Source: an uncultured Candidatus Saccharibacteria bacterium (GTDB lineage Bacteria; Patescibacteriota; Dojkabacteria; J137). Taken from it: a stretch of DNA of 64,000 bases. The translations under genes were made by a program, and so were the position numbers. Positions within the stretch are counted from its first letter, which is position 1; each line of letters starts with the position of its first letter. Shown here piece by piece: positions 8,511-30,714 of this stretch. The notes below the pieces were generated by a model. That model worked only from the letters and a program-made list of their open reading frames with translations. It ran no database searches and was not told the origin of the DNA. The stretch spans positions 2,767 through 66,766 of the forward strand of contig CAYPVU010000046.1 of assembly GCA_964414295.1 (NCBI GenBank). Reading direction: 5' to 3'.

Positions 8511-8537
8511 AGGGAGCTTAACTGCTCCCTCTTTTTA
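8511..8537. terminator. bidirectional rho-independent terminator between convergent operons
   Basis: AGGGAGC-TTAACT-GCTCCCT hairpin with an A-run upstream and a T-run (CTTTTTATTTTTT) downstream. It sits between the + gene ending at 8435 and the - gene ending at 8535. Confidence 0.5.
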
Positions 8538-11500: not shown

Positions 11501-13154
11501 CACCTTTTTCAAGTATCTTAACATATTCATTAATCTGAAGATTGTAACCTTTCATTTTATTTTTATGAATACCTGATTTACTACCAGGTTTAACATCATA
11601 AATATCTAAAGTACCATCTTTCCTAATAATAAGGATATCTATTGTACCAGCTCTTTTACTAGTAGTATTAGCAACCATTACTTCAGATAATACAATAGAA
11701 CCATCTTTTTTAGCCTCAGCTATAATATCAGCAATAGTTTCTATACCAGAATCAGAACTTCTAGTATTAAGTTTAGATTTTAATATACTATATATAGGAT
11801 TACTAGAATATTTAGATTCAATAGGTTTTAAATGCTTATTCTCATTAGGAAAAGCTTCTCTAATTAATTCTGATACTATTGCATGTTTTAATAACCCTAT
11901 TTGCTTTTCTCTTTCATTTTTCTCTATATCTTCTTTAGTTTGAGTAGAACCAGCAAATCTTTTATTATAATCCTCTTCTACCATTTCAGTAGGTGATTTA
12001 TAACCTTTTTCTCCTAATACTTCATATCTCTCTCCTTTAGCTCCAGTTTCATCTTTTATTATTTTAGATTGTAACTCTTGTAAAGAAGTTAATATAGATT
12101 TTTGAGATACTTCTCCAGCTTGATAAAAATCAGAATCTTCTAATGTTTGATTATTTTTTTTAGACGTTTTACCAGAGAGTATTTCAGAAGCTATATCTTT
12201 ATAAGGATTAGATACTTTATTATCAGCTATTCTAATAGCATCAGATAACTTAGTTAATCCTACATTCTTTAATATTCTTTTTAATACATTTAATACATTA
12301 TCAAACCATCTATTAGCTTTTTCTATATTAGCTTCAGTTTCTTCACCTTTAAACTGTTTAACTATATGATTAGCTATTAATTTACCAATAGCTTCTTCTT
12401 TTATCTTATCTATATTAGATGTACCATCTTCATTCTGATATGCTACAAATGAACTATATTCAGCTAAAGTAGCTTTATATATCTCATATTTAGTTATATC
12501 CTTCATCATCTTATTAAATAAAGGATTATCTTTACCTAATAATCTTACAGCAAAGTGAGCAGCTTCTTCAGATAAAGTATCTAATCTAGATTTACCTTTA
12601 ACTACTTGTATTAAATTATCTAATAACTTAGCTCTAGCTATAACATTTAAAGGATTTCCTTGAGAATCTGTTATCTCATCTAATTCTTCTACTGTTACAC
12701 CAATACTATCTAAATATTCCTTTATAATATTATCTAAGTTTTCGTTAGCATCTTCCATCATAGAAGATACTTGATAATTACCTGATTTTATTTTTTCAAT
12801 ATTAGCTTTTCTACCATTAGAATAAGTTAAATAATAATTACCATTAGATGCTTTAGCTATATCTAAATTTAATTTTTGAGCCTCTTGTCTTAGTTGGGCT
12901 ACATGTACTAAACTACTTGGAGCAAAACCACTTTGATTAATATTCCATTTATTAAGAAAAAAATTAATATCTTTTTCAGATACTTGATAAAAATCAGTAT
13001 TAATATTAAGCTCTTCTAAAGTAGGAAATCTATCATAATTATTATTCTTAGATTGCCATACAGAAAACTTAGCAGCTACTAAATATGAAGGTAATCCTAA
13101 TCTATCAGCTGCTTGTTTTACTTCAGGATGATTTTTATTTATACAAATAATCAT
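8535..13154 (-). CDS. large virion (probably ejected) protein, 1539 aa, with an acidic patch and a C-terminal transmembrane helix
   Basis: Last gene of the late operon, with a 4-nt overlap to the giant ORF. The C-terminal region has GVLLEMAVITALIGLVTVL followed by DDGDDDD. Confidence 0.45.
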   Translation of the reverse strand: MIICINKNHPEVKQAADRLGLPSYLVAAKFSVWQSKNNNYDRFPTLEELNINTDFYQVSEKDINFFLNKWNINQSGFAPSSLVHVAQLRQEAQKLNLDIAKASNGNYYLTYSNGRKANIEKIKSGNYQVSSMMEDANENLDNIIKEYLDSIGVTVEELDEITDSQGNPLNVIARAKLLDNLIQVVKGKSRLDTLSEEAAHFAVRLLGKDNPLFNKMMKDITKYEIYKATLAEYSSFVAYQNEDGTSNIDKIKEEAIGKLIANHIVKQFKGEETEANIEKANRWFDNVLNVLKRILKNVGLTKLSDAIRIADNKVSNPYKDIASEILSGKTSKKNNQTLEDSDFYQAGEVSQKSILTSLQELQSKIIKDETGAKGERYEVLGEKGYKSPTEMVEEDYNKRFAGSTQTKEDIEKNEREKQIGLLKHAIVSELIREAFPNENKHLKPIESKYSSNPIYSILKSKLNTRSSDSGIETIADIIAEAKKDGSIVLSEVMVANTTSKRAGTIDILIIRKDGTLDIYDVKPGSKSGIHKNKMKGYNLQINEYVKILEKGDPKLGILPSKVAKKRIIPISNTYTIQDDKTTNTKKYFLKSFEYNNSIPTGLEKTGIVKIDEMIDNFRTQIEILERKLTKQTDEKEKEKIKDFISTRETYISNLQKQRTLASILPAIQRDLLIIEDLLTDDNFDPSLNWQDIKDSLKLYTNLNSILSDEELKTKKDHAVVDSIVGTAKRLEGVMLKIATNIISDNLTKQQILGQNGIVSPEDALQPQVETSMWSRFWLGVSKSENPLVASVYKMVTKALEKSRQDSYTLKNKIKAVIDKNNLTSSDFDRMLQIDDEGNKTGNLVAPVKYSYWLEFNKALRSNNDEWFTKNTIKDDEKYKTSKKNYEEVLKGRKKYDIVEILGNLNKSDKYKDRTQDELLLIADNIWEKKYNENIKVWEERNKNNNKFRKPKMEIWADPKYLEIQNDSRLKEFYDLYTKTMDDVSEFLPMKDVRSNFIPNFTKQFVEKAMDIGFLEAIKQLPKEASESLQFTMDEKEYGLRNPITGERVNDIPVLGAQEMVFYNREERREFMDKRKSYDLGQVLYTFIDSAYRYRELKEVENTALITLDKIKETQAIEAVMPDGTKKMKADNTNTYNHLKDYIDTVFYGRAKEEGTGIEIGGKRYGLDKAFDKVIAYTSLKNLGLNLFAPVVDHLGNITNASFAAITGKYYSTKNFGKAYKYATLGNGGITENDKKAKLLMEKFDIVTGFFGREYAKELTAYKSKKIFDTSHFYSLYKVSEFALQNSVMMAMMLEGKYGISFNDYTIKDGELVWNNPNKPEPTTEEIAVFRQKVLHVIKNITGNLDPNDKAAINRTIMGRLLMQHRNWIPRQFESRWGAKKYDYVLETWVEGRYRTLLREGFGILRGKKKFSELSEMEKSNLKGVLLEMAVITALIGLVTVLKSDDGDDDDTWFERYVTRISDRLVSELTFFVSLGSAMEILKSPMATSGTLEDGMNWFKEVWKALTGEDHKLGKKSRRFIVGWGRLEYFYDYVNGDIKK

Positions 13155-16100
13155 TGGTTATTCTTTAAACATTTTAACATTACTCTTTTATCTTCTTCAG
13201 TACCCATATTAAAGTAACTCTCAGTAATATCTTGAGCTTCTAACTTATCTTTAACTTCTTGTATTAAGTTTGCAAATATAATACTTTTATCTGAATTAAT
13301 CAAAGAATTTATATAATTATCTAAATTATTAAACTTATCTTTTATACCATACATTTTCATTTTTTTATTGAAATCTTCAGTATTAAAGTCTTCAGTAAAA
13401 GTATAACCATCGTTATATGTTATTTTAGCTGTAGTAACATTATTGTTAACAGAAATAACATTTATTTTAATGTTATTAAAGTTATTCTTAGAATCTATTT
13501 TATAGTCTATAATTGGTGTACTAGTTTCTTTATTCGGATGATCTATAGAAAACTCTTGATTTTTAAGTATATAATTATCTAAATTATCTGTAACTTTAAG
13601 TTCTTGTCTAACTTCCATTAATAATTTAGGAAACTCTTTACCCCATTTACCTTTATCTTGTGTATGTGTAAGTTCTGACTTTCCTGTAGCTAATAATTTT
13701 TGTAAAGCTTTTGGATTTTGTTCAAAAGAAGCTTTTATTAACTGACCCATTAATTCCGTCTGTTGTGCATCAGTAGTTGTACCTAAAGGTCCTCTAAATT
13801 TAGAAACAGTCATTACACCATTTCTATTAAAAGGAATATAAGCTCTGTTATCGTAAGTAGCTTTATCAAACTTACCGCCTTTTAAAGATTGGTATGCTTG
13901 TTCCACAGAATTAAAAGAAACACCTTTAAAAGTAAAAGGTCTAACAGCAAAGTTACTCAACTCAGCATTTTCATTAGTATCTGCGTAAATATTAATTTTA
14001 GGTAAACTTGGGTCAAATAAATTATCTATTGGTGCTTCTTTAGCAGGAACAGATAATTCAACTGGATTTAATAAAGCACTTGTTAATTCATCTTCTATAA
14101 CATTATCTTGCTCAACATTAGTTTCATTTATTTCAATAGTAGATATAGGAGTAGGTTTAACCATATTATATTCATTAACTCTTCCTAAAGAATCAGCAAT
14201 AAAGTTTCTTTGCTCTAAAGTTAATCCAGTATTATTTTCATCTATAATACTTTTCTTTTTAGTCTTATACCATTCTTGTAAATTAGCTCCATTACCTAAA
14301 GGATTATCTATTACAAAAACAGGCATATCTTGAGAATCTTTACCCATATTTTCATAGATAAACTCTCTCTTAGCATCAGGATTCCACATTTTAATATACT
14401 TTTTATTAGAGTATACTTTATTATAATCAGATTTTTTTAAAGAAAACCCTAAAATTCTATCACCATCTTTATATACTCTATTAGTATTATATAAAGGTAT
14501 CATTTCTTGTAACTCTTGATTAAATACCATATTATATAATTTAAACTTAGATAATACAGTTTTCCAATTATTTTTAGCAAATTGAACTACAAATCCTCTA
14601 GTAATACCTTCTTGATCTTTAATATAAGCTTCTTTAAATAAATTTAAAGCTCTTTGTAATACTGGTATCATTTTATCAGCAGGTAAGTATTTCATATAAC
14701 TTAAATAACTTTCTGCTATACCAGATTGAAATAAAGCTAAATCTATTAATTTACCTCCTAAAGCAGGATTAGTATTAAATAACTCTTGTATAGAACCTGT
14801 TATCTGATCTGATGTATATTTATTAAACTTTTTATTAATAAACTGTACATTATCTATACTTGATTTATTTTTAATAAGAGGTATAACATATCTATTTATA
14901 AATAGATTATTATGTAAAGGATGATTAGGATCTCTCTTAATAGCTAATATTTGTTTACCAACAGAGTTATCACCTAAAAATAATTCTTTTAATAAATTTT
15001 GGTTAACTAATGTTTCATCTAATCCTACTAAGTATACATAATTTAAAAATGAATCAGTTATAGTATCTAATAATTTTTCATCTTGGATATCTCCTTCTAT
15101 GTTCATAAATGATTTAATTTCATTTAAGAACTTTTTATATAAAGGAGAACCAGTTAATAATAATTGCCCCCATAAGTCTATTGAAAATTTAGCACCATTG
15201 TTTTTAAATCCTCTCATAAAAGTAGCATTATATACTTCTTTTAAATTAGGTATTAGTACTCTACCAATAGGAACAGTTGGATCTATACCAGCTTTTTCTT
15301 GTTTAGCAATATAATTATAAGCACTAGGAAGATCTTTACCTACACCAAATGTATCATCTTTAGTAGCATTAATAGCATCAGTATACAATTTAGAATCTTC
15401 CATTAATCTTAAATAGTCATCTAATAATTGTAACTGTAATTTAGCATTTTCTGCTTCAGATAGTTGTCTAAGTTCTCTTAAATTATTAAAGTTAAAAGTA
15501 TTATTACCTAGTATATTATCTCTATCTTTTTTGTATTGAGTGTTTACAAACTTTATAACTTCAGGTTCTTTAGCATCATATAAACTATATTGATATAACT
15601 TAACAGAATCTTTGTTTAATTGTTTAATATACTTATCTCTTATTTTTTTAATTACTTCATTTTTACTTAAATTATTCTTACCAGTTAAACCTTTATTAAT
15701 TCTAGATTCTTTCACAAAATCTCTAATAATAGGTTGATTTAAGAACTCTATAACAAACTTATAATCAGCTCCTATAGAAATCATATATAAAGCTAAATCA
15801 GTTGTCATAGGATTAATATTCATCTTAGAAATAAATGGATCTTTAGCATTATCCACAAATGCTGTTAAGAACTCAGAAATCATTTCAGATATCAATGTAT
15901 TTCCTTTATTATCATAAACACCAGCTAATGATGGATATCCTTCTTGAGTTTTATTAAAATCAAAATTATAACTAAATCCTGGAACTACATATAGATTAGC
16001 AATTTGTGATAATATGTGGAAAGTATTGTGTAATGCTGATTGACCAACACCTGCTTTACCTTCCATATTTCTAACATGAGTATCTAATATTGTAGGAAAC

Positions 16101-19100
16101 TCTATTAATTTAGATCCTTTTACTTTACTAGAACCATCATCATAAAACTCTTCATATAGTTGTTTAAGCTTAGTACTACCATTAGGAGTAATTAACTGTT
16201 TAAATATTATATCATTAGGACCACTATTTCTTAATACAGTATGATTAATTTGATTTAATCTATTTTGTAATATTTGCTCTTCTGATAAAGGTTTATTATC
16301 AAAGTTATGATTATTAATAAATATATTTAATTTATCCACGTCAAAATCAGAACCACCTTGTGCAACTATCTCAGAAGGTACTACAACAGATTGTCCAGAT
16401 TCAGCAGGTAAAAATCCTACTATTTTAAAACTAACCATTGAGTTAAGTCCTTGTGTAGGAATACGATATCCTAATACATCTAATAATTCAGGATTAATTT
16501 TAGCTAAGTCTTCAACTGTTTTAACACCTTTATCAGCCCACATATTAGGAACTAATATTTCAGCTTGTAGAATCTCTTTACCATTTTTATCATTCTTTCT
16601 AACAAAAGCTAATCTTCTAGATCCTACTTCTTTATCAGTTTTCATACCAACAGTTTCAAATCCTGTTGATGCTACTTGAATTAATGTAGTACCTTTAGTT
16701 TTTTGTTTAATAATTCTATTATTAACTAAAGCTTGGAATAAGTTTTCTATTTTATTTCTAACTACAAGAGAATCTAAACTAGCCTTTAGTTTACTAGGAT
16801 TGTCTTTATCATATAATTCATCAAGACCATCTATAATATTCTCAGGTAAATTTCTTTGTCTTACTTCAGCCTTAATTAACTTTAATAGTTTTTCAGTATT
16901 ATTAAAAGTATAAATATCTTCTTCTTTAGTTACACCTAGCTCAGATAATAACTTTTCTTTAGATATTTCTGTAAGTCTATCTATAATATCAGAATACTCA
17001 TTAAATAATTCAGTAGCTGTAACTTCTTTATTATTATAAAAGTCAATTAACTGATAGTTATTATCAACACCTAGACCAAATAAATTAGAGAATAATAGTT
17101 TTCTTAGCTGTGTACCGTATAATATATTAGTTTTAACTTCCTGATTAGTATCTAACTGTAATCTTAAATAATCTAATCTTATTTTATTAGTATATAATTC
17201 TCCTTTATTAGATATTTTAATATCACTATTAGGATCATTATTTACATATAAATCATTTAACATAACCTTTGAGGGTGTACCTACTTTATTACCTGATTCA
17301 AATACAGCTATACCTACTCCATTATTCATTAAAGATTTATTTAAGTTCTCTAATTTACTACCTTTAATCATTGTAGGTAATAAAGGAACTAATGATAACT
17401 TTAAATAGAATGGTACATAAGAATCTTTATAATTTAGATCTGGTCCATAGTGCATTGGTTTTATTGGACTAAATAAAGCAAACTCTTCTTTAGTAATAGT
17501 TTGGTTATTCATTAATTTCTTATAAGCAGCTTCATGCGAATCAGACCAATAATAACCACCTAATCTAATCATATAATCTCTAAATGCAGGTAATGTAATA
17601 TATCCTTGAGCATCTGCTTCATTTAATTTAGCATAAGTTTCATCTACTATAGCAGGATCAATATATTTTTTATATTCATCTGTTAATAAAGATGTAATTA
17701 TAACATCCTTATAAACAGCTACTTTCATAGTACCATCTGTAGGATATTCAGATACTTGCTCAGGAAGTACGTTAATAAAATGATCTCTATATATTAAATT
17801 ATTAATATAAGAATCAATAGCAGGTATCTTACCAGTTGCTATTATACCAGGAGTTCTTTTATAGAAATCTTTAAAATAAGCTAAATCACCAAAAAATAAT
17901 TTAGTTTGTTCTATTGCACTAATTAACTCATTAACTCCAAATATAGCAGCTATTTCATTAATTTTATAAGATTGTAAGTTTTTACTTAAATCTGAAGAAG
18001 TTACATTAAACTCTTGTAATTTAGGTAATAATCTATTATTAGTATAATCTGTTAGATAATCAAATAACTCTCCTCTAAATCTATCTAATAGTTCATCATA
18101 TACTTTAGTACCTTCAATAATAGGTAACTTATAAGTTATTAAATCACTTTTTAGTTTATCAGATAACCAATCAAATAATAAAAACTCTTTACCATTTTTA
18201 TCAAACTCTTCTACTCCTTCTAATGTATCATAACTATTGATTCTATTAAGTTCATCTAATACATATCCAAAGAATTGTCTTTGTAACTCAGGATTAACAG
18301 ATACTCTATTATTATCTATTTGTATATCTTCTTTAGTAAATACTTTTAATCCTTTTAAACCATATTCTAATTTCTTATCAGCAGGTCTTAATAAAGTATG
18401 TATTTTATTATCTAATAAGTCTATTATCCTAGATATAATAATATCTTTTTCAGATAGCTTAGAATGATGTTTAGATTCTTCTTCAGCACTAATACCATCT
18501 CTAATAACTATTTGTAATTTACTATTATTTTTAATCTGTCCTAACCAAGTACTATGAACAATATTTTTATTGTTAGCAGTATCTAATTGAGGTAATACTT
18601 TATTATTTTTTAAATCATTAATTATTTGAGCTAAATAATTATATAAAGTAACAGCATAAACAGATTTACCTTCAGAATTAATAAAGTTTAATTCTATTTC
18701 ATCAACAGAATTAAGAGCTTCCATATTAATTAACTGTTTAAATCTACCAGCAGATATATTATCACCATAGTTAAACCATTCAGTAATTTGTTTATCTTCA
18801 TTTATACTTTTTAGTACTTCAGCTTTTAACTCAGCTACTATACCTTTAGCTTTCTTATAAGTTTCTTCATTACTTAATTTAATACCTAAAGAATCTAAAA
18901 ATAATTTATCATTATCTTTAACACTATTATATAGTTTTAATTTTTCTTCTTTAGTTCCAATAGAATATTTAGAATTTTTAATTCCTGATAAAAACTCTTT
19001 TCTAATTTTACTTTCAAGCTTTTCTGTAATAGCATCTATAGAATAAATGTTACCATCTCTATCTACAATTGTTTTTACATAGTCATTTTTAGTTTTACTA

Positions 19101-22100
19101 AATGCTTGAACAAAATCATATAATAATCTAGCTTGATCTAAATCTTTAATAGTTAAATCTTCAGTAACTCCTAAATGATCTAATATTTGATACATCCAAG
19201 GATATTGATTAACATTGTTTTTAAGAACATTAATCATAGAAGGCATATCAGTAATACCATTTAAAGTTTCAGCTAATATAGCCCAAGTTTTATCAAAGTC
19301 TACTAATTTAACTTCTCCTTTAGCTATTGCAGTATAAAGGTTACCTTTATCATTAAACACACTAGCATCTTTATATTCAAATAAATTGCGTATTAATAAT
19401 TTAATAGTATTAGGTAATCCATTCTTAGATGAAAATTCAACAGATGGTTTAAAATCTAAACCTGAGTTTCTATCATTTATTTTAATCTCATCATACTCTT
19501 CTACTTCATTAAATGTAGATAACCCAAACTCTGATAAATTATCATAATGTAATTTAGAAAACTCATTCCAGTTTTGTATAATTAAACTATATAATTTTGT
19601 ATCTGCTACAGAATTAGCTTCTTTAATATAATCTAATAACATAGGGTAGTAGTAAACTTCTAACATCCCTTTATCAGATATTTTACTTAAATGCTTTTGT
19701 GAAAATCCTCTTTTAGTATAGATATTCATGAATATAATATTCATAGCATCTAAAGCAGTTTTAACTTGTTCTTGAGTTAAACTTACTTTTCTAGTAACAT
19801 TATTATCATCAGTATAATTAAATATTCTAACTCTAAAGAAGTTATTATTAGTTGTATTTAATTTATTTAAATTACGAGTAATAGGTGTAGCATTAGCATA
19901 CATACCTTTATTAATTTTATTAAATAAAGTATCAGCATCTAATGGTTTACCTAATATTAAATGTTTAAAGAAATCAAATATCTTTTGGAAGAAATTCTTT
20001 TTAGTTTTTTCTTCTTTATTAAATTTTAATTTACCATCTGATAATACATAATCTCTAAACTCTTCAGCTAATGCTTCTTCCACTTCTAAATCTGTAGCAT
20101 TAGGTTTATTGTGTCTTTTTCTATAATCATTGTATAATGATAATCTTTGCTTATCATTTAAAAATAATTGTGATACTACGTGAAAAGCTTCATGGTAAAC
20201 AGTACCTACTTCTGCTACTTCAGATACTTCAACTGTACCTAATTTCTCAGCAGATACATAAAATCTACCAAATGCTTCTTGTCCATATTTAGCAACTTCT
20301 ATTAAATCAGATACTTTAAGAAACTTAATTTGAGGAAATCTTTCTCTAAACCAAGCTTCTTCTTTTTCCATATCTATCTTTTCATATGGATTATTATCTG
20401 TTTTAAGTCTAAAATTAAAAGGTAGAGCAATATCTCCAGATTCAGTTAAATTAATATCTAATGCAGATCCTGTGGTTGTTTCACTGTTAACTTCTGTTTT
20501 ACTAATTACAGGTTGACTAGCAGATTGTATATTTAAAGCTTCTAAAGCAGCTTGTGAAGCATCATCTATTACTATACCAGTATTATCAACAGGTACTTCT
20601 TCTTGCATACCTTCTTTAATATCTATATCTATATTAGTAATATCAACAGCTTGATTTATATCACCAAATGCAGACATTACAGACTCATTGACTGTAGGAT
20701 TATTAGTTGGTGAAACAGGCTCTGACTTATTACCTAATACATTAGATAAGCTAGTGCCAGTAAGAGTAACTTTTTGAGTAGAAGTAGTCTTAGCTATAGG
20801 TTGATCATATAGATTATTAGAATCATATGAAAAATATACACTTAAAAATCTTTTACCAGTATTATTAACGTTCCCTACAACATCTGTTGAAAATATAGGA
20901 GTTCTCTTTTGAGGAGCTATAGATTTACTACCAGGTGTAGCATGAGCAGTTAAATACTTAGCATAACTATCATATAAGTTATAGTTTTTAATTTCAAGCT
21001 TTTTATCTTTTATTTCCCAATTAGTTATCTCTAAATGTTTACTAGTATTATCTCTTTGTTGATCTAATAATTTTTTAGATACATTATTTAATTTATTTTC
21101 TAATAACCAATCTTTTAATAACTTTTGATTTTGTTCATCAGCTATCTTATCCATTGTAATAGTATTTTCACCAAATACTAAACTATTAGCTTCATAATCA
21201 AAGTATATAGCAGTCTTAGGATTCTGATTATTATTTCCCCAATAAATTAAAGATCCTATAATAGAATAAGATTTATCTTGAATATTTTCAGATTGTTTAG
21301 ATGGTACTAAATAATATTTAAAACCATCTATCATAATATGATTTTGTCTAAAATTAGATAAATCACCATTAGATATATTAGATATATATTTTAATATATC
21401 TATAATTAAATCAGCATTTTTACTAGAAATATTATTAGGTACTAATTCAGCAACTGTACCTTCAGGTCCTAATATTACTTGCCCATTAGCATTAGGAATA
21501 AAGTAATATAAAGCTCCTGATTTTCTAACATTTTTAATACTACCATCAGGTAATACTATATGAGGAGTTTTATTATTCTCAGTGGTTTGTGCTACAAATA
21601 AAGACTTATGTAAATTATCATCTACACCAAAAGTTTCTTCTACATTATTTCTAGCTCTTTGTCCATTTCTAGTAACAATAGTATTTAATATACCATTAGA
21701 TTTACCAGTAACTTTTAAATATACAGGTTTATCAGATGACTTAATTTTATTTCTAAAGTCCTCAAACTTTTGAATATCATCTACTCTACGTTTATTATAT
21801 TCTTCTTCTGTTTCACCAGGTCTAGTTTCTGAAGCTAATACTCTATCATAATATGTAGGTTCATGTATAAATGCATATAGATGTACTCCATCTACTATAA
21901 CAGGTTCAGTACCATTATATAAAAATACTTTGATAGTACCATCTTCTTGTGCTTCAGCTCTTAAAAAATAATTATTATCTACAGTATTATTCTTAGGATC
22001 TCTTAGATAATCAAACCATTTATCAGCATCATTTTCAGTATTAAATTCTAACTGACCTTCTTCATTAAATATATCTTCATACTCTCCAGTATATAATACA

Positions 22101-25100
22101 TCTAATCCAGCAGTAGAATATAAATTAGGTTTAGCTTTTCTAGTTAACTTATGAGTAGTTTTAGCTACATCTAAAGAATTATCTTTTGTATCATTAGACT
22201 CTTGTTCATTAAAAGATATTTCTCCAGGTCTAGATACACTATTAGTAGATTGTTTAAATAAGCTAGAATAACGTTTTTTATGCTTATCTAATACTTTTTT
22301 ATATTTAGCTAAAGGTTTTAACTCAGCTTTATATTGTTCTAATAATCTTTCTTTTTCTTTTATTAAATTTTCTAATATAGCTGCTTCATTTTCTCTTAAA
22401 GTAATTTCTTCATTAAGAGCAATATTTTCTTTAGAATTAACAGGTAAGTTATCTAACTCTTTTATAGAATTAACTTTATCTAATAACTTTTTAAAATATT
22501 CATATTTACCTCTTAACGCAGCTTTAAGTTTATTAATTATTTGTTTTAAAATAGATAATGATTCTTTAGCTGTAGATATAGCCTTTTCTGTATCTTCAAT
22601 TAATTTTTCTAATTGAACAGCTCTACCATCTAAATCAACTAAATTAAGAGAAGCTAACTCAGGTCTTTTAGATTCTAAATCGTTTTTCTCAGATTCTAAT
22701 TTACTTATTTCAGATTGAATAGAATAATAAATATTATTTAATTTTTCAATCTTTTCTAAGATAAATTTATTTTTTATTTTTTTCTTATCTTTAGTAATAT
22801 TAGATATTTCTTCTAATATTTTATTAGCTTCATTTTCTTTAGCTGTTATTTTTCTATTAATAGAATCTATTCTTCGATCTAATTGAGATAGAAGTTCATT
22901 AATTGTAGCTAATCTACTAGCAGCATCAATAAAGTCTTCATTAGCTTTATTTCTTAAACTTAAAGCAGCTTCATCTAACTTACGAGGCTTATATTTATTT
23001 TTGTTTTTGAATAACTCATTAATAGCATATCTAGTAACACCACCAGTAGGTTTGTGTACTTCTAAGAACTTATTACCAGAAGCATCTTGTATTACAGTAC
23101 CTTCTAATATTTGTCCATCTATATCTACTTCTACAATGTCACCAGTATTATATTCAGCTTCAAATTCTTTTAATTCTGTTTCATCCTTAGCAGCTTTAGT
23201 TTCTTTTTCATTAACTATTTTAGTAGCTTCTTCTTCTTTCTTTTTAGCTTCTTTAGCTTTCTTCTCAATAGTTTGAGGATTAGTTAATTCATCAAATCTT
23301 TTATAAGACTTTCTTAATTCTTTTATAAAAGCTTTTCTTTCTTTCTCTAAAGCTTCTAAATCTTTTTTAGAAGGTGATCCTTGTAGTTCATCAGAAAGTT
23401 CTTCAGCAGCTTCAGAAAGAGCTTCAGCAAATAAGTTTTTATCTTTTTCTAATTCTGCTTGTTTAATAGATACTTTATTGTTTAAAGCTTCTAAACCTTC
23501 TTTTAAACTTTTTTGTACTAAGGCTTCATTAAATATTTGATTTCTAACAGCAGGAGTAATTCCTCCAAATCTATCTGTTAGTTGATTATATAATTGTTCT
23601 AACTCTAAAGCTTTTTGTCTATATTCTCTAGATATAGTTTTACCATCTATAACATTACCTTTAGAATCTTTCATTTCAGGTAATACTATACCTTGTTGAG
23701 CTAATTGCTCATTAGTTAAGTCTTTAAGAGAATCTATCTCATTTAATAATCTTTCTCCTAAACCAGCTTCAAAATGAGTAAAAGCCCATCTATTAAATTG
23801 CTGATCTTTAAAGTAATTAAATAGTTCTTCACTACCAGCCTTAGCAGCTAGTTCTTGAGCTTCTTGTAATTTACCAGATTGTGCGTATTCTTGTATAGTT
23901 TTAATTATAGCATTCTTATCAACTTTTAATTCTCCAGTTTTTTCATCTTTAGTAATAAATTTACCAAAAGTATCATTCTTAAACTGATTAGCGTCTATAA
24001 GCTTTTTAAGATCTTCTAATTGTTTTCTTTCAGCTTTACCTCCTTCACCTATAGCTTTAGCAGAAGCTCCAAATAATCCACCTAAGATCATACCTGCTCC
24101 CATTGCATCCCAACCTTCTTTAGTTGTAAATGCGTTCATATATTCTTTAAATACTCCAGATATAGTTCCTAAATCTTCATAATCTGGTTCTAAATATTTC
24201 TTTTTATTATATTCTTGGAAAGCGTGTTGTAAACCTTCTTCAACTATACCTTCACTAAATGCTTGAGTAGCAAACTCTTTACCTATTTGTTTAGTAACAG
24301 CTTTCTTAGGTAAAGCAATAGTACCATCTTCTAATACATCTAATAAAGCTTTTCTACTATTATTATATCTTCTAAACCAAGAAGCAGCTTGCATCTTTTC
24401 TAAAGGTAATAGTAACATATTTAAACCAACTGTAGACATAGCAGCTTCAGCAGCTTTTTTCTTAGCTGTAGAATCATCATATCCTTGATTTAATAAATCA
24501 GAATATACTTCATCATATGTTTGTTTACCTTCAGCAATAGACTCTATAGATCTTGCAACACTACCAACAGTCCATTCAGATAGTTCTTTTGTAACTTTAT
24601 TTAAAGGAGTTTTTTGTAAGCTATTTGCATTTAATACTTTAATAGCAGCTTTATCTCCCATACTAGCAGCTTGTTCTAAAGCACCTAATTCTCCTATACT
24701 TAATCTAGTAGCATCAGATAATCTTTTACCATATAAAGATTTAGTAGCAGGTCCTATTAATTTACTAGCCCCATAACCAGTTAAATAAGCAGAAGCTATA
24801 AAAGCAGCACCATCAACTAAATCATCTGTCCAATAATCTAAGTCTGTTAAAGCTCTATGTAAGAAGTTTTTATTTTGATCAGCTTTAGTATTATAAATAG
24901 GAAGAGCTTCTTTTATACTTTCTTCAATATCCATAATAGCTCTAGATACAGGATTTTCAAATAAAGCAGAAGCATCTTGTTGAATAAGAGCAGAAGGAAT
25001 ACCTATTAGTATATCAGATATACTTGTAGCAGCTTTAGTAACTGTAGTACCAGCTAATCTACCTATACCATGAGCTACTGATTCACCTATACCAAATCTT

Positions 25101-25375
25101 TCAGCTCTAATTTCTTCTAATTCATCTTTAGAGAAATATGGAGATCTAAAGTCCATATCTCTAACATCTTCATTAGTAGCCCAAGATTTACCGTAACCAG
25201 CAGTTTCTGTAAAAATATTTGATCTGCTACCAGATTTGTAGTTTCCTCTTAATATATCATCAACTGTTAAAACAGGTGCTTGTCCTTGTAAATTAGTATT
25301 AGTAGAAGTAGATTTTTTATTTTTATCATCTCCTCCTGTATTACCAGTTAAAATATCATCTATTATAGCGCTCAT
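13151..25375 (-). CDS. giant multidomain virion protein (4074 aa): coiled-coil N-terminal third, HExxH zincin motif, crAss-like virion RNA polymerase DxDxD motif, C-terminal NADAR/YbiA-like domain
   Basis: Uninterrupted 12.2-kb ORF. VYHEAFHVVSQLF at about aa 1728. SDFDVDK at aa 3010-3014 (nt 16334..16348). NADAR-like ELSNFAVRPFTFKGVSFNSVEQAYQSLK...FEQNPKALQKLLATGKSELTHTQDKGKWGKEFPKLLMEVRQEL at aa ~3795-3927. Confidence 0.6.
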   Translation of the reverse strand: MSAIIDDILTGNTGGDDKNKKSTSTNTNLQGQAPVLTVDDILRGNYKSGSRSNIFTETAGYGKSWATNEDVRDMDFRSPYFSKDELEEIRAERFGIGESVAHGIGRLAGTTVTKAATSISDILIGIPSALIQQDASALFENPVSRAIMDIEESIKEALPIYNTKADQNKNFLHRALTDLDYWTDDLVDGAAFIASAYLTGYGASKLIGPATKSLYGKRLSDATRLSIGELGALEQAASMGDKAAIKVLNANSLQKTPLNKVTKELSEWTVGSVARSIESIAEGKQTYDEVYSDLLNQGYDDSTAKKKAAEAAMSTVGLNMLLLPLEKMQAASWFRRYNNSRKALLDVLEDGTIALPKKAVTKQIGKEFATQAFSEGIVEEGLQHAFQEYNKKKYLEPDYEDLGTISGVFKEYMNAFTTKEGWDAMGAGMILGGLFGASAKAIGEGGKAERKQLEDLKKLIDANQFKNDTFGKFITKDEKTGELKVDKNAIIKTIQEYAQSGKLQEAQELAAKAGSEELFNYFKDQQFNRWAFTHFEAGLGERLLNEIDSLKDLTNEQLAQQGIVLPEMKDSKGNVIDGKTISREYRQKALELEQLYNQLTDRFGGITPAVRNQIFNEALVQKSLKEGLEALNNKVSIKQAELEKDKNLFAEALSEAAEELSDELQGSPSKKDLEALEKERKAFIKELRKSYKRFDELTNPQTIEKKAKEAKKKEEEATKIVNEKETKAAKDETELKEFEAEYNTGDIVEVDIDGQILEGTVIQDASGNKFLEVHKPTGGVTRYAINELFKNKNKYKPRKLDEAALSLRNKANEDFIDAASRLATINELLSQLDRRIDSINRKITAKENEANKILEEISNITKDKKKIKNKFILEKIEKLNNIYYSIQSEISKLESEKNDLESKRPELASLNLVDLDGRAVQLEKLIEDTEKAISTAKESLSILKQIINKLKAALRGKYEYFKKLLDKVNSIKELDNLPVNSKENIALNEEITLRENEAAILENLIKEKERLLEQYKAELKPLAKYKKVLDKHKKRYSSLFKQSTNSVSRPGEISFNEQESNDTKDNSLDVAKTTHKLTRKAKPNLYSTAGLDVLYTGEYEDIFNEEGQLEFNTENDADKWFDYLRDPKNNTVDNNYFLRAEAQEDGTIKVFLYNGTEPVIVDGVHLYAFIHEPTYYDRVLASETRPGETEEEYNKRRVDDIQKFEDFRNKIKSSDKPVYLKVTGKSNGILNTIVTRNGQRARNNVEETFGVDDNLHKSLFVAQTTENNKTPHIVLPDGSIKNVRKSGALYYFIPNANGQVILGPEGTVAELVPNNISSKNADLIIDILKYISNISNGDLSNFRQNHIMIDGFKYYLVPSKQSENIQDKSYSIIGSLIYWGNNNQNPKTAIYFDYEANSLVFGENTITMDKIADEQNQKLLKDWLLENKLNNVSKKLLDQQRDNTSKHLEITNWEIKDKKLEIKNYNLYDSYAKYLTAHATPGSKSIAPQKRTPIFSTDVVGNVNNTGKRFLSVYFSYDSNNLYDQPIAKTTSTQKVTLTGTSLSNVLGNKSEPVSPTNNPTVNESVMSAFGDINQAVDITNIDIDIKEGMQEEVPVDNTGIVIDDASQAALEALNIQSASQPVISKTEVNSETTTGSALDINLTESGDIALPFNFRLKTDNNPYEKIDMEKEEAWFRERFPQIKFLKVSDLIEVAKYGQEAFGRFYVSAEKLGTVEVSEVAEVGTVYHEAFHVVSQLFLNDKQRLSLYNDYRKRHNKPNATDLEVEEALAEEFRDYVLSDGKLKFNKEEKTKKNFFQKIFDFFKHLILGKPLDADTLFNKINKGMYANATPITRNLNKLNTTNNNFFRVRIFNYTDDNNVTRKVSLTQEQVKTALDAMNIIFMNIYTKRGFSQKHLSKISDKGMLEVYYYPMLLDYIKEANSVADTKLYSLIIQNWNEFSKLHYDNLSEFGLSTFNEVEEYDEIKINDRNSGLDFKPSVEFSSKNGLPNTIKLLIRNLFEYKDASVFNDKGNLYTAIAKGEVKLVDFDKTWAILAETLNGITDMPSMINVLKNNVNQYPWMYQILDHLGVTEDLTIKDLDQARLLYDFVQAFSKTKNDYVKTIVDRDGNIYSIDAITEKLESKIRKEFLSGIKNSKYSIGTKEEKLKLYNSVKDNDKLFLDSLGIKLSNEETYKKAKGIVAELKAEVLKSINEDKQITEWFNYGDNISAGRFKQLINMEALNSVDEIELNFINSEGKSVYAVTLYNYLAQIINDLKNNKVLPQLDTANNKNIVHSTWLGQIKNNSKLQIVIRDGISAEEESKHHSKLSEKDIIISRIIDLLDNKIHTLLRPADKKLEYGLKGLKVFTKEDIQIDNNRVSVNPELQRQFFGYVLDELNRINSYDTLEGVEEFDKNGKEFLLFDWLSDKLKSDLITYKLPIIEGTKVYDELLDRFRGELFDYLTDYTNNRLLPKLQEFNVTSSDLSKNLQSYKINEIAAIFGVNELISAIEQTKLFFGDLAYFKDFYKRTPGIIATGKIPAIDSYINNLIYRDHFINVLPEQVSEYPTDGTMKVAVYKDVIITSLLTDEYKKYIDPAIVDETYAKLNEADAQGYITLPAFRDYMIRLGGYYWSDSHEAAYKKLMNNQTITKEEFALFSPIKPMHYGPDLNYKDSYVPFYLKLSLVPLLPTMIKGSKLENLNKSLMNNGVGIAVFESGNKVGTPSKVMLNDLYVNNDPNSDIKISNKGELYTNKIRLDYLRLQLDTNQEVKTNILYGTQLRKLLFSNLFGLGVDNNYQLIDFYNNKEVTATELFNEYSDIIDRLTEISKEKLLSELGVTKEEDIYTFNNTEKLLKLIKAEVRQRNLPENIIDGLDELYDKDNPSKLKASLDSLVVRNKIENLFQALVNNRIIKQKTKGTTLIQVASTGFETVGMKTDKEVGSRRLAFVRKNDKNGKEILQAEILVPNMWADKGVKTVEDLAKINPELLDVLGYRIPTQGLNSMVSFKIVGFLPAESGQSVVVPSEIVAQGGSDFDVDKLNIFINNHNFDNKPLSEEQILQNRLNQINHTVLRNSGPNDIIFKQLITPNGSTKLKQLYEEFYDDGSSKVKGSKLIEFPTILDTHVRNMEGKAGVGQSALHNTFHILSQIANLYVVPGFSYNFDFNKTQEGYPSLAGVYDNKGNTLISEMISEFLTAFVDNAKDPFISKMNINPMTTDLALYMISIGADYKFVIEFLNQPIIRDFVKESRINKGLTGKNNLSKNEVIKKIRDKYIKQLNKDSVKLYQYSLYDAKEPEVIKFVNTQYKKDRDNILGNNTFNFNNLRELRQLSEAENAKLQLQLLDDYLRLMEDSKLYTDAINATKDDTFGVGKDLPSAYNYIAKQEKAGIDPTVPIGRVLIPNLKEVYNATFMRGFKNNGAKFSIDLWGQLLLTGSPLYKKFLNEIKSFMNIEGDIQDEKLLDTITDSFLNYVYLVGLDETLVNQNLLKELFLGDNSVGKQILAIKRDPNHPLHNNLFINRYVIPLIKNKSSIDNVQFINKKFNKYTSDQITGSIQELFNTNPALGGKLIDLALFQSGIAESYLSYMKYLPADKMIPVLQRALNLFKEAYIKDQEGITRGFVVQFAKNNWKTVLSKFKLYNMVFNQELQEMIPLYNTNRVYKDGDRILGFSLKKSDYNKVYSNKKYIKMWNPDAKREFIYENMGKDSQDMPVFVIDNPLGNGANLQEWYKTKKKSIIDENNTGLTLEQRNFIADSLGRVNEYNMVKPTPISTIEINETNVEQDNVIEDELTSALLNPVELSVPAKEAPIDNLFDPSLPKINIYADTNENAELSNFAVRPFTFKGVSFNSVEQAYQSLKGGKFDKATYDNRAYIPFNRNGVMTVSKFRGPLGTTTDAQQTELMGQLIKASFEQNPKALQKLLATGKSELTHTQDKGKWGKEFPKLLMEVRQELKVTDNLDNYILKNQEFSIDHPNKETSTPIIDYKIDSKNNFNNIKINVISVNNNVTTAKITYNDGYTFTEDFNTEDFNKKMKMYGIKDKFNNLDNYINSLINSDKSIIFANLIQEVKDKLEAQDITESYFNMGTEEDKRVMLKCLKNNQ
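13595..13993 (-). other. NADAR (YbiA/DUF1768-like) domain segment of the giant ORF
   Basis: Aligns by eye with E. coli YbiA. GDFSNFAAWP..DG..W.TSEHYFQAQKF matches ELSNFAVRPFTFKGVSFNSVEQAYQSLKGGKF. FEQHAELRALLLAT...WGDGGHGKGKNRLGYLLMELREQL matches FEQNPKALQKLLATG...WGKEFPKLLMEVRQEL. Confidence 0.6.
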
Positions 25376-28278: not shown

Positions 28279-28292
28279 AATTTATATTTTTA

Positions 28293-30647: not shown

Positions 30648-30656
30648 ATATTAAAA

Positions 30657-30669
30657 TTTTGCAAATATA
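30657..30669 (-). promoter_or_regulatory. TATATTTGCAAAA promoter-like element upstream of the 784-aa gene
   Basis: Plus-strand TTTTGCAAATATA lies 10-22 nt upstream of the start at 30647. It is the same motif found at 25391 and 38068. Confidence 0.35.
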
Positions 30670-30714
30670 AGTAAATCAAAGTTATAATCCAAAAAAATAC
30701 TATAATATTTTTTA

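What the first reader, a model, noticed from the sequence alone, without database searches (positions are those of the whole stretch)
13595..13993. NADAR (YbiA-like) domain embedded in a probable ejected virion protein: candidate injected anti-DarT/ADP-ribosylation counter-defence
The segment aa ~3795-3927 aligns by eye with E. coli YbiA over both conserved blocks (SNFA...P...G..F.S.E.AYQ..K.GKF, then FEQ...L..LLATG...L.HT..D..WG...LLME.R.EL). NADAR domains hydrolyse ADP-ribose adducts, including guanine-ADP-ribose made by DarT toxins. Phage-encoded NADARs have been proposed to counter DarTG defence. Here the domain would enter the cell with the genome as part of the cargo protein, before any phage gene is expressed. 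That would be an efficient anti-defence delivery route.
Basis: partly seen in the sequence, partly recalled or inferred. Interest (0 to 1): 0.8.

Follow-up and report, generated by a model that had tools for sequence, protein, structure and literature searches.

The report
ADP-ribose-removing domain on crAss virion polymerase
A small enzyme domain of the kind that strips ADP-ribose off DNA bases is fused to the end of the giant RNA polymerase that this crAss-like phage packs into its particle; the same fusion recurs in hundreds of related phages, so it is probably an anti-defence tool delivered together with the polymerase.

Summary

The carrier is not generic cargo. It is the Crassvirales virion RNA polymerase polyprotein, a fusion of crAss001 gp47-like and gp50-like parts. 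Its catalytic module matches phi14:2 gp66 (E=1.5e-47), with the DFDVD metal motif aligned.

In 60 of 80 related viral contigs the NADAR sits in the same ORF as this polymerase. The domain moves as a cassette: it is 87% nucleotide-identical to a copy in a phage whose polymerase is only about 25% identical, with dN/dS 0.2.

The catalytic Glu, Lys and T4 AdfN-like His are kept. The window's copy has an unusual short middle segment and lacks one phosphate-binding Trp.

The anti-DarT reading is plausible but inferred. All phage NADARs tested so far reverse DarT1, yet no substrate, host or DarT link was shown here.

I rate it a new variant of a known kind, with moderate to high interest.

A side finding: the cargo proteins are almost cysteine-free except at their extreme termini.

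The parts
13151..25375 (-). 4074-aa virion RNA polymerase polyprotein (gp47-like plus gp50-like fusion) that carries the NADAR domain
   Evidence: ORF. blastp to crAss001 gp47 (aa 96-252, 1670-1829) and gp50 (aa 2497-3252). The identical protein is on record on an 86-kb Logan contig.
13598..13999 (-). NADAR (YbiA-fold) domain cassette, aa 3793-3926
13901..13903 (-). E3825, equivalent to catalytic Glu (P. nicotianae E43, T4 AdfN E36)
   Evidence: Aligned to 8bau SSEQYF. Glu in 67/67 distinct relatives. Mutational data in PMC11543638 and PMC11257639.
13880..13882 (-). K3832, equivalent to the phosphate-binding catalytic Lys (P. nicotianae K50, AdfN K43)
   Evidence: Same Glu+7 spacing as in 8bau. 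Lys in 67/67.
13643..13672 (-). Last-strand and loop motif LTHTQDKGKW (aa 3902-3911) with invariant Thr-His (H3904), D3907 and W3911
   Evidence: T-H 67/67, Q 65/67, D 58/67, W 64/67. Same L-x-H-[ST] signature as T4 AdfN LKHS. hhalign places the YbiA Glu opposite T3903 and His opposite His.
13754..13879 (-). Atypical short middle segment (aa 3833-3874, GGKFDKATYDNRAYIPFNRNGVMTVSKFRGPLGTTTDAQQTE). It replaces the usual GAxAKxLGRxIKGLDxKxWD helix and loop. The family Trp (P. nicotianae W89) is T3868.
   Evidence: Alignments. W in 62/67 relatives, Thr only in the window and L005. pLDDT <50 for fragment residues 90-114. Not a frameshift artefact. Conserved in L005, P0028, P0029 and P0030. dN/dS 0.12.
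14000..14128 (-). Acidic, low-confidence linker between the polymerase body and NADAR (aa 3750-3792)
   Evidence: pLDDT 45-68. No similarity to L005. The gp66-equivalent body should end near aa 3745, extrapolating from the alignment.
13154..13597 (-). C-terminal tail after NADAR (aa 3927-4074), unknown fold. It ends ...VMLKCLKNNQ with the protein's only Cys (C4069, nt 13169-13171).
   Evidence: No Pfam hit. Cys count.
15602..17977 (-). Catalytic RNA polymerase module (aa 2467-3258) with the metal-binding DFDVD motif at aa 3010-3014 (nt 16334-16348)
   Evidence: phmmer to 6VR4 (phi14:2 gp66) E=1.5e-47, GSDFDVDKL aligned with GSDFDIDKM. tblastn to crAss genomes.
20180..20194 (-). HEAFH (HExxH) motif at aa 1728-1732 in the gp47-like part; possible zincin-like processing peptidase
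   Evidence: Motif. The region aa 1670-1829 is homologous to crAss001 gp47 2100-2293 and conserved in many loci. No Pfam or PDB sequence hit. Peptidase role inferred from PMC5512222.
8535..13154 (-). 1539-aa homologue of crAss001 gp49 (polymerase-associated cargo protein), overlapping the stop of the giant gene
   Evidence: blastp E=7e-22. Single Cys at residue 4.
25879..34893 (-). Upstream context: muzzle gene (30715-34893) and two Cys-free genes of 784 and 799 aa in the cargo C1/C2 position
   Evidence: PF25731 crAss_MUZ E=1.5e-146; ring proteins 1 and 2 further upstream. Synteny with crAss001 gp44-gp50.

Best explanation
The segment encodes a NADAR-family ADP-ribosyl N-glycohydrolase domain. 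It is appended, through a flexible linker, to the C-terminal side of the virion-packaged RNA polymerase polyprotein of a divergent crAss-like phage.

The polymerase is made late, packed in the capsid and ejected ahead of or with the DNA. The domain therefore enters the cell with the enzyme that must read the incoming genome.

The most likely job is to remove ADP-ribose that host ADP-ribosyltransferases of the DarT1 type put on bases (guanine N2) of single-stranded phage DNA, or possibly on nascent RNA. The enzyme would act locally at the transcription bubble, so early transcription and later replication are not blocked.

The domain behaves as a mobile accessory module. It is swapped between unrelated polymerase genes and can sit on either side of the polymerase core.

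Shown here: the fold, the key residues, the polymerase identity of the carrier, the recurrence of the fusion, the horizontal transfer and the purifying selection.

Inferred: packaging of this particular protein, catalytic activity, the substrate, and the anti-defence role.
For: Fold and family:

Key residues:
- Glu, Lys and Thr-His are invariant in 67/67 distinct relatives; D and W are near-invariant.
- E36 and K43 of T4 AdfN are essential for countering DarTG1 (PMC11257639).
- The His signature is the hallmark of AdfN-type phage NADARs (PMC11125620, PMC11257639).

Carrier:
- Muzzle, then two cargo-position genes, then the giant gene.
- Homology to crAss001 gp47/gp50, which are in virions by mass spectrometry (PMC10172136).
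- Homology to the phi14:2 gp66 polymerase.

Recurrence:
- 158 relatives in IMG/VR. Of the best 80, 60 share one ORF with the polymerase core (50 on its C-terminal side, 10 on its N-terminal side) and 9 lie in the adjacent ORF.
- 874 representative proteins match. Of the best 150, 90 are at least 1000 aa.
- Only 7 hits in 185,579 species genomes, all of them metagenome-assembled genomes.

Mobility and constraint:
- 86.8% nucleotide identity to L005 over 402 nt, while the polymerases are 24-28% identical. dN/dS is 0.20. P0028 shows the same mosaic pattern.

Companions:
- In L044 the NADAR sits beside an AlkB-like 2OG-Fe(II) dioxygenase, another direct-reversal enzyme for base damage on single strands.

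Precedent:
- All phage NADARs tested so far remove guanine ADP-ribose and defeat DarT1 (PMC11257639, PMC11125620).
Against: - No enzymology, and no host or DarT gene was linked.
- PADLOC gives no DarG match.
- The window's copy scores below Pfam's gathering threshold.
- It lacks the Trp equivalent to the pyrophosphate-contacting W89, and its middle segment is short and modelled with low confidence.
- The R93 equivalent is absent from the whole subfamily.
- The subfamily is closer to YbiA (hhalign 98.5%) than to T4 AdfN (64%, N-terminal half only).
- Iyer et al. (PMC9503650) argue that most phage NADARs target soluble ADP-ribose derivatives rather than macromolecular adducts.
- Only a few polymerase copies are thought to be packaged per virion (PMC10172136), which limits any global detoxifying capacity.
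- Whether the domain stays attached or is cleaved off by the HExxH region is unknown.
Confidence: 0.42

Rival explanations
1. The domain degrades soluble NAD/ADP-ribose-derived molecules (for example N-glycosidically linked cyclic ADP-ribose type immune signals or toxic by-products) at the very start of infection, rather than adducts on nucleic acids.
For: The general argument for phage NADARs, and for their packaging or early deployment, is in PMC9503650. In cr130_1/cr131_1 and L044 the NADAR is flanked by SLOG/DprA-like and DUF7831 domains; PMC9503650 links SLOG-Macro-NADAR combinations to small-molecule processing. The altered phosphate-binding segment in the window's copy could reflect a different ligand.
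Against: Every phage NADAR assayed so far acts on guanine-ADP-ribose in DNA (PMC11257639, PMC11125620). Covalent tethering to a DNA-bound polymerase makes little sense for a diffusible substrate. The AlkB-like neighbour in L044 points to nucleic-acid base repair.
Confidence: 0.2
2. The domain serves the polymerase's RNA products. It would remove ADP-ribose from RNA bases or ends, or process NAD-derived 5' structures on early transcripts.
For: The fusion to an RNA polymerase is the dominant architecture. NADARs have been linked to RNA repair contexts (PMC9503650). Titles and abstracts retrieved describe NADAR hydrolases reversing cytidine ADP-ribosylation and reversing enzymes for RNA ADP-ribosylation (PMC12945103, PMC11833690; not read in full).
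Against: There is no direct evidence for any RNA substrate of this subfamily. The position of the domain relative to the polymerase core is variable (N- or C-terminal, or a separate ORF), which argues against a fixed geometric coupling to the RNA exit path.
Confidence: 0.15
3. In this particular phage the domain is catalytically impaired and acts as a binder or decoy, or is a decaying passenger.
For: Sub-threshold Pfam score. Trp to Thr at the W89-equivalent site and a 3-residue shorter, low-pLDDT middle segment. A non-enzymatic phage NADAR counter-defence is alluded to in PMC11257639.
Against: The same variant is kept in at least four different protein contexts (window, L005/P0029, P0028, P0030). 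dN/dS is 0.20 overall and 0.12 in the unusual segment. All catalytic-core residues are retained. A related short-middle group exists (L011, L029, L044, L050), so this is a lineage rather than random decay. The low pLDDT may simply reflect that only one alignment row carries the variant.
Confidence: 0.12
4. The domain balances or reverses ADP-ribosylation carried out by the phage's own injected ADP-ribosyltransferase, as an immunity or timing device.
For: Virion-packaged ARTs are common in polyvalent phage proteins (PMC5512222, PMC9503650).
Against: No ART domain was found in the window's large proteins. A by-eye PARP-like motif next to NADAR in L026/L052 was not confirmed by Pfam or PDB searches.
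Confidence: 0.06
5. It is a housekeeping YbiA-type N-glycosidase for riboflavin-pathway intermediates.
For: Best NCBIfam hit is TIGR02464. The subfamily is closest to YbiA by profile comparison.
Against: 31 bits against a cut-off of 73.7. The YbiA-defining last-strand Glu is not conserved. The context is a packaged polymerase of a lytic-type phage with no riboflavin genes nearby.
Confidence: 0.02

Closest known systems
T4 AdfN (gp30.3), the phage 'orphan antitoxin' NADAR that defeats DarTG1
   Same: NADAR fold. Catalytic Glu and Lys at the same spacing. L-x-His-[Ser/Thr] in the last strand instead of the YbiA Glu. Phage-encoded, and a likely counter to base ADP-ribosylation.
   Different: AdfN is a free-standing 152-aa early protein made after infection. 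Here the domain is part of a 4074-aa packaged polymerase. Sequence relationship is weak: PF08010 gives 25 bits against a cut-off of 36, and hhalign gives 64% over the N-terminal half only. This subfamily keeps the QD..W(G) loop that AdfN lacks.
DarG1 (DarT1-associated NADAR antitoxin; G. lovleyi 8BAT, E. coli C7)
   Different: DarG1 has an Asp in the last strand and a basic N-terminal extension thought to bind ssDNA (PMC11543638). Neither is present here. There is no adjacent DarT and no PADLOC DarG hit.
E. coli YbiA / P. nicotianae NADAR (PF08719 core family)
   Same: Best sequence and structure matches. Shared SNF...E......K and D..WG...LLME.R motifs.
   Different: The last-strand Glu is replaced by Thr-His. 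The R93 equivalent is missing in the subfamily, and the W89 equivalent is missing in this copy. It is embedded in a phage polyprotein.
Crassvirales virion RNA polymerase (phi14:2 gp66; crAss001 gp47/gp49/gp50)
   Same: The carrier protein is a member: E=1.5e-47 to 6VR4, aligned DxDxD motif, same gene neighbourhood.
   Different: gp47-like and gp50-like parts are fused into one 4074-aa chain. crAss001 and phi14:2 gave no match to the NADAR query.
Polyvalent virion-injected phage proteins (T4 Alt, MuF fusions, N4 vRNAP with zincin peptidase; Iyer et al. 2017, 2022)
   Same: A multi-domain giant protein delivered with the DNA. It combines a 'jump-start transcription' module, an HExxH region and a conflict-related enzyme domain.
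   Different: NADAR does not occur as a word in the 2017 polyvalent-protein paper, and crAss phages do not occur in either paper. The partner here is a two-barrel crAss-type polymerase rather than an N4-type one.

Membership tests
NADAR superfamily (PF08719, YbiA fold) | Significant match to the family profile at the curated threshold | tested here: inconclusive
   The window's copy scores 30.1 bits, E=6.8e-7, below the gathering score of 35.1. Close relatives pass (36.6-55.9 bits in L052, L026, L063, L047 and L010). The subfamily profile hits YbiA at 6e-15 and 8bau at 3.8e-10. hhalign gives 98.5%.
NADAR superfamily (PF08719, YbiA fold) | YbiA-like alpha+beta fold | tested here: met
NADAR superfamily (PF08719, YbiA fold) | Catalytic Glu and phosphate-binding Lys (P. 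nicotianae E43/K50) | tested here: met
   E3825 and K3832 align to 8bau SSEQYFMKRK. Invariant in 67/67 relatives.
NADAR superfamily (PF08719, YbiA fold) | Charged or His residue in the last strand (Glu in YbiA, Asp in DarG1, His in phage gp30.3 type) | tested here: met
   LTHT with invariant Thr-His, like T4 LKHS. The exact register against the YbiA Glu is ambiguous: hhalign pairs Glu with Thr, while anchoring on the Leu pairs Glu with His.
NADAR superfamily (PF08719, YbiA fold) | Pyrophosphate clamp (P. nicotianae R79, W89, R93) | tested here: not met
   The W89 equivalent is Thr in the window and L005 (W in 62/67 relatives). The R93 equivalent is Ser in the subfamily consensus. The GR Arg is R in only 36/67, and its equivalent in the window is uncertain.
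NADAR superfamily (PF08719, YbiA fold) | N-glycosidic hydrolysis of ADP-ribose adducts | not testable with these tools
   Needs enzyme assays.
AdfN-type anti-DarT1 phage NADAR | Membership of the gp30.3 sequence family (PF08010) | tested here: not met
   25.3 bits against a cut-off of 36, with only 29 N-terminal residues matched. hhalign to T4 AdfN gives 64% over 54 columns.
AdfN-type anti-DarT1 phage NADAR | Removes guanine ADP-ribose from DNA and restores growth on DarTG1 hosts | not testable with these tools
   Experimental. By analogy only (PMC11257639).
AdfN-type anti-DarT1 phage NADAR | Host range includes bacteria encoding DarT1-like toxins | not tested
   Host unknown (27% G+C window).
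Crassvirales virion RNA polymerase | Homology to phi14:2 gp66 with the metal-binding DxDxD loop | tested here: met
   E=1.5e-47 to 6VR4; GSDFDVDKL aligned to GSDFDIDKM.
Crassvirales virion RNA polymerase | Location in the cargo gene block after the muzzle gene | tested here: met
   PF25731 muzzle at 30715-34893, then the 784-aa and 799-aa genes, then the giant gene and the gp49 homologue.
Crassvirales virion RNA polymerase | Physical presence in virions and ejection into the host | not testable with these tools
   Known for the homologues (PMC10172136; review PMC10136315). Not known for this protein or for its NADAR end.
Polyvalent phage proteins (Iyer et al. 2017) | Zincin-like HExxH peptidase domain within the multi-domain chain | tested here: inconclusive
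   HEAFH at aa 1728 lies in a region conserved with crAss001 gp47 and many loci. There is no Pfam or PDB sequence match.

The most novel reading that the evidence does not exclude
Crass-like phages couple a base-adduct eraser to their injected RNA polymerase. The NADAR domain, tethered to the enzyme that opens the incoming DNA, would strip ADP-ribose from exposed template bases as transcription proceeds. That would be a form of repair-coupled viral transcription. The domain is traded between phages as a plug-in cassette for the ejected polyprotein, alongside other direct-reversal enzymes such as AlkB-like dioxygenases.
Probability: 0.3. Interest if true: 0.75.

Novelty: new variant of a known kind. 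Interest (0 to 1): 0.62.

Why it matters
Crassvirales are the most abundant phages of the human gut, yet almost nothing is known about how they evade host immunity. Phage NADARs were only recently shown to defeat DarTG1, and only as free early proteins of T4-like and a few other coliphages.

A NADAR built into the packaged polymerase would be present before any phage gene is expressed and would sit exactly where single-stranded phage DNA first appears.

The fusion is frequent: hundreds of representatives, with 60 of 80 sampled loci holding it in the polymerase ORF. It is also horizontally mobile. Together these suggest strong and widespread selection by ADP-ribosylating defences in Bacteroidota-type hosts, which have not been studied in this respect.

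It also shows that the giant crAss polymerase proteins act as platforms for exchangeable accessory enzymes. The claim is directly testable with a 135-residue recombinant domain.

Tried and rejected
- Megablast of the whole giant gene against 50,697 phage records found no match. The phage has no close sequenced relative there.
- I asked whether the odd middle segment is a compensated frameshift or assembly error. The other two frames are full of stops and hold no canonical motif, and the same segment recurs in L005, P0028, P0029 and P0030. Rejected.
- PADLOC search for a DarG-like signature gave only a weak hit to candidate model PDC-M42C.
- A by-eye PARP-like H-Y-E motif (VYHG...GFYFTD) next to NADAR in L026/L052/P0029 had no Pfam or PDB support. 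Dropped.
- The HExxH region had no significant hit against PDB sequences or Pfam, so the peptidase call stays an inference.
- The genome collection scan gave only 7 hits, all metagenome-assembled genomes of mixed phyla. These may be mis-binned phage contigs; I did not check. It gave no host clue.
- Seven literature searches combining NADAR, DUF1768, YbiA or ADP-ribose terms with crAss terms found no paper describing this fusion. The only trace is the GenBank product name 'DUF1768 domain-containing protein' on cr126_1 gp003.
- tRNA scan of the window: none.
Full report
**1. What is at the coordinates**

The + strand of 13595-13993 has many stop codons. The minus strand is in frame within a single 12.2-kb ORF, 13151..25375, encoding 4074 aa.

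**2. Is it a NADAR domain?**

- Pfam gives PF08719 at E=6.8e-7 and 30.1 bits for the isolated 201-aa stretch, and 7e-5 for the whole protein. This is significant but under Pfam's gathering score of 35.1.
- TIGR02464 gives 2.6e-7, far below its equivalog cut-off.
- phmmer against all PDB sequences finds only E. coli YbiA (1.6e-5), with both blocks aligned.
- A word-indexed search returned 26 homologues at 44-55% identity; 24 of them already carry PF08719.
- A profile of 22 of these plus the query (A1) hits YbiA at 6e-15 and the Phytophthora nicotianae NADAR (8BAU) at 3.8e-10. hhalign against YbiA gives 98.5% probability over the full domain.

The fold assignment is secure.

**3. Catalytic residues**

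In the alignment to 8BAU, E3825 and K3832 fall on the residues called E43 and K50 in PMC11543638. The PDB chain numbering is offset by two. These correspond to E36 and K43 of T4 AdfN, both essential for countering DarTG1 (PMC11257639).

In the last strand the protein reads L-T-H-T-Q-D-K-G-K-W-G. The literature distinguishes NADAR groups by this strand: Glu in YbiA, Asp in DarT1-linked antitoxins, His in phage gp30.3 proteins (PMC11125620). T4 AdfN, which I translated from the T4 record, reads L-K-H-S here.

Across 67 distinct relatives the counts are:

| Residue | Conserved in |
|---|---|
| Glu | 67/67 |
| Lys | 67/67 |
| Thr-His | 67/67 |
| Gln | 65/67 |
| Asp | 58/67 (Glu in 6) |
| Trp | 64/67 |

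The register of His against the YbiA Glu is ambiguous. hhalign pairs the Glu with the Thr. Anchoring on the preceding Leu pairs it with the His. I could not resolve this without model coordinates.

**4. The unusual middle segment**

Most relatives carry ...GAxAKxLGRxIKGLDxKxWD... between the two blocks. This includes the equivalents of the pyrophosphate-contacting R79 and W89 of the P. nicotianae enzyme.

The window instead reads GGKFDKATYDNRAYIPFNRNGVMTVSKFRGPLGTTTDAQQTE. It is three residues shorter, with Thr where 62/67 relatives have Trp. It is modelled at pLDDT <50, although only one alignment row carried this variant.

It is not a frameshift artefact. The same variant occurs in L005/P0029, P0028 and P0030, which are four different protein contexts counting the window. 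A looser group with SGxFDxxTY and shortened middles also exists (L011, L029, L044, L050).

Between the window and L005 the segment has dN/dS 0.12, against 0.20 for the whole domain (only 53 substitutions, so this is rough). The variant is maintained, not decaying. It may nevertheless bind the ADP-ribose phosphates differently or prefer another substrate.

**5. What carries the domain**

The window is a divergent Crassvirales genome.
- The major capsid protein is about 35% identical to crAss capsid proteins.
- Portal and terminase are present.
- Pfam identifies the crassvirus muzzle protein (E=1.5e-146) and tail ring proteins 1 and 2.

Downstream of the muzzle gene come two genes of 784 and 799 aa, then the 4074-aa gene, then a 1539-aa gene. 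This is the order gp44 (muzzle), gp45, gp46, gp47, gp49/gp50 of crAss001.

Local BLAST shows:
- The giant protein joins a gp47-like part (aa 96-252 and 1670-1829, including HEAFH at 1728) to a gp50-like part (aa 2497-3252).
- The 1539-aa protein is the gp49 homologue.

Residues 2467-3258 match the solved phi14:2 gp66 DNA-dependent RNA polymerase at E=1.5e-47, with GSDFDVDKL aligned to the catalytic GSDFDIDKM.

gp47, gp49 and gp50 were detected in crAss001 virions by mass spectrometry and are modelled as ejected, partly unfolded cargo (PMC10172136). The phi14:2 enzyme drives rifampicin-resistant early transcription (review PMC10136315).

Extrapolating the gp66 alignment, the polymerase body should end near aa 3745. 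An acidic, low-confidence linker (3750-3792), the NADAR (3793-3926) and a 148-aa tail of unknown fold follow. The domain is therefore a C-terminal appendage of the packaged polymerase. Packaging of this exact protein is inferred, not shown.

**6. Recurrence**

- Among GenBank phages the query domain finds crAss genomes cr126_1, cr131_1 and cr130_1, plus T4-like Aeromonas phages and a few others.
- In cr126_1 the domain is at the N-terminus of gp003, already labelled 'DUF1768 domain-containing protein'. gp003 is the orthologue of crAss001 gp50 (E=1.7e-138).
- In cr130_1 it lies near the end of a 5801-aa protein, and in cr131_1 inside a 1401-aa one.
- A scan of IMG/VR found 158 relatives. I analysed the best 80. 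In 60 the NADAR is in the same stop-free ORF as the polymerase core: 50 on the C-terminal side and 10 on the N-terminal side. In 9 it is in an adjacent ORF, some of these split only by recoded stop codons. In 11 the held DNA shows no polymerase match, although 7 of these are still ORFs of at least 1189 aa.
- An exhaustive HMMER search of 1.84 billion representatives gave 874 proteins at E<=1e-3. Of the best 150, 90 are at least 1000 aa and 48 are at least 3000 aa.
- Only 7 hits occur among one genome each of 185,579 prokaryotic species, all in metagenome-assembled genomes.

This NADAR clade is thus essentially a phage domain, and mostly a polymerase-attached one. The sample is ranked by similarity to the query, so it is biased towards this clade.

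**7. Mobility**

The L005 giant protein is 24-28% identical to the window's in the polymerase and HExxH regions. Yet 402 nt covering exactly aa 3793-3926 are 86.8% identical at the DNA level, and the flanks are unalignable. P0028 shows the same pattern: about 33-35% in the alignments covering the polymerase against 88% in the NADAR.

The variable position of the domain relative to the polymerase core points the same way. The domain is a cassette exchanged between distant polymerase genes, which is typical of accessory conflict modules.

Neighbouring accessory domains differ from phage to phage: AlkB-like 2OG-Fe(II) dioxygenase, DUF7831, an SLOG/DprA-like stretch recognised by eye (with the GenBank product name on cr130_1), UvrD_C_2 and DUF4116.

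**8. Mechanism**

The best-supported reading is that an ADP-ribosyl N-glycohydrolase is delivered with the polymerase and removes base ADP-ribosylation from phage nucleic acid.

For this reading:
- The fold and the retained catalytic core.
- The AdfN-like His.
- All phage NADARs assayed so far (T4 AdfN, Bas32, Bas60) hydrolyse guanine-ADP-ribose and neutralise DarT1 (PMC11125620).
- DarT enzymes act on single-stranded DNA and block transcription and replication (PMC11543638).
- An AlkB-like direct-reversal enzyme is co-fused in L044.

Tethering suggests local action at the transcription bubble. This fits the small number of polymerase copies thought to be packaged (PMC10172136).

Against this reading:
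- There are no functional data and no host or DarT link.
- There is no DarG-like PADLOC hit.
- The phosphate-binding segment is altered.
- The subfamily is nearer to YbiA than to AdfN.
- Iyer et al. hold that phage NADARs mostly target soluble ADP-ribose derivatives.

Rivals are listed separately with their odds.

**9. Relation to what is known**

- NADARs as DarT1 antitoxins date from 2023, and as phage counter-defences from 2024.
- Giant 'polyvalent' injected proteins with HExxH peptidases and jump-start polymerases were described in 2017 (PMC5512222). That paper mentions neither NADAR nor crAss phages.
- I found no paper that describes NADAR domains in Crassvirales polymerases. The library does not cover subscription journals or supplementary tables fully.

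I therefore rate it a new variant of a known kind: a known counter-defence enzyme family in a new, widespread, polymerase-tethered and horizontally mobile architecture.

**10. Side observation: cysteines**

The 4074-aa protein contains a single cysteine, six residues from its C-terminus. The gp49 homologue has a single cysteine at residue 4. The two cargo-position proteins have none. Other proteins of the window have 0.55-1.4% Cys.

crAss001 shows the same pattern:
- gp47 has one Cys, third from the end.
- gp49 has one, at residue 5.
- gp50 has Cys at residue 5 and ninth from the end, plus one internal.
- gp46 has none.

Of 53 distinct NADAR-bearing ORFs with a visible end, 45 have a Cys in the last ten residues. 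Mean Cys content of 75 giant ORFs is 0.076%.

The crAss001 structure paper reports disulfides in tail and capsid proteins but nothing on cargo termini. A head-to-tail disulfide link between cargo proteins is one idea. It is untested.

**Verdict**

The anti-DarT function is plausible at roughly 40%. Interest is 0.62.

Noticed in passing
window 13169-13171 (C4069 of the 4074-aa protein); 13143-13145 (Cys4 of the 1539-aa protein, 8535-13154); 25879-30647; also L092 (crAss001 gp45-gp50) and L005-L084: Cargo proteins are almost free of cysteine, and the few Cys sit at the extreme ends. The giant protein has one Cys in 4074 residues (6th from the end). The gp49 homologue has one Cys (residue 4). The 784- and 799-aa proteins have none, against 0.55-1.4% Cys in capsid, portal, terminase, muzzle and primase. 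crAss001 gp47, gp49 and gp50 show the same pattern. 45 of 53 distinct giant ORFs end with a Cys within the last 10 residues. Possible terminal disulfide links between cargo proteins; not mentioned in PMC10172136.
   Followed up: partly
window 13151-25375 versus L092: The giant protein is a single-chain fusion of what are separate genes in crAss001: gp47-like aa 96-252 and 1670-1829, gp50-like aa 2497-3252. An HEAFH motif at aa 1728 (nt 20180-20194) lies in a block conserved across many loci. It may be a zincin-like processing peptidase as proposed for polyvalent proteins, but it has no Pfam or PDB sequence hit.
   Followed up: partly
L044:8651-11728; L003 (cr130_1) 10651-13815; L002 (cr131_1); L063; L010: Other accessory domains are fused next to the NADAR in polymerase polyproteins of other phages. 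L044 has an AlkB-like 2OG-Fe(II) oxygenase plus DUF7831 (Pfam), and an SLOG-like stretch recognised by eye. cr130_1 has DUF7831 after the NADAR (Pfam); cr131_1 shows the same sequence motif there. cr130_1 also has a DprA/SLOG-like stretch before the NADAR. L063 has UvrD_C_2 and L010 has DUF4116. The polymerase proteins look like platforms for exchangeable enzymes.
   Followed up: partly
L002 (cr131_1) and L003 (cr130_1) NADAR regions; L025, L082: In-frame stop codons inside conserved NADAR sequence (for example GNR*ITH, F*AAK) indicate stop-codon reassignment in these phages. Their apparently 'stand-alone' small NADAR ORFs under the standard code are artefacts.
   Followed up: no
window 53542-56583 (-): The large terminase ORF is 1013 aa, and its N-terminal 100-490 residues also match P-loop helicase-loader and primase PHROGs. 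It may carry an insertion or an extra domain. The crAss review mentions inteins in TerL of some groups.
   Followed up: no
window 8535-13154 (-), aa 412-579: The gp49 homologue has a weak, sub-threshold PD-(D/E)XK nuclease match (PF12705, E=0.0017, 18.8 bits against a cut-off of 22).
   Followed up: no
H1 (Bacillus phage AgentSmith MW749006 46361-46789); H5 (Pseudomonas phage Lu11): The closest GenBank phage copy of this NADAR subfamily (47.7% identity) is in a non-crAss Bacillus jumbo-type phage, inside a gene annotated as toprim domain protein. The cassette therefore also circulates outside Crassvirales.
   Followed up: no
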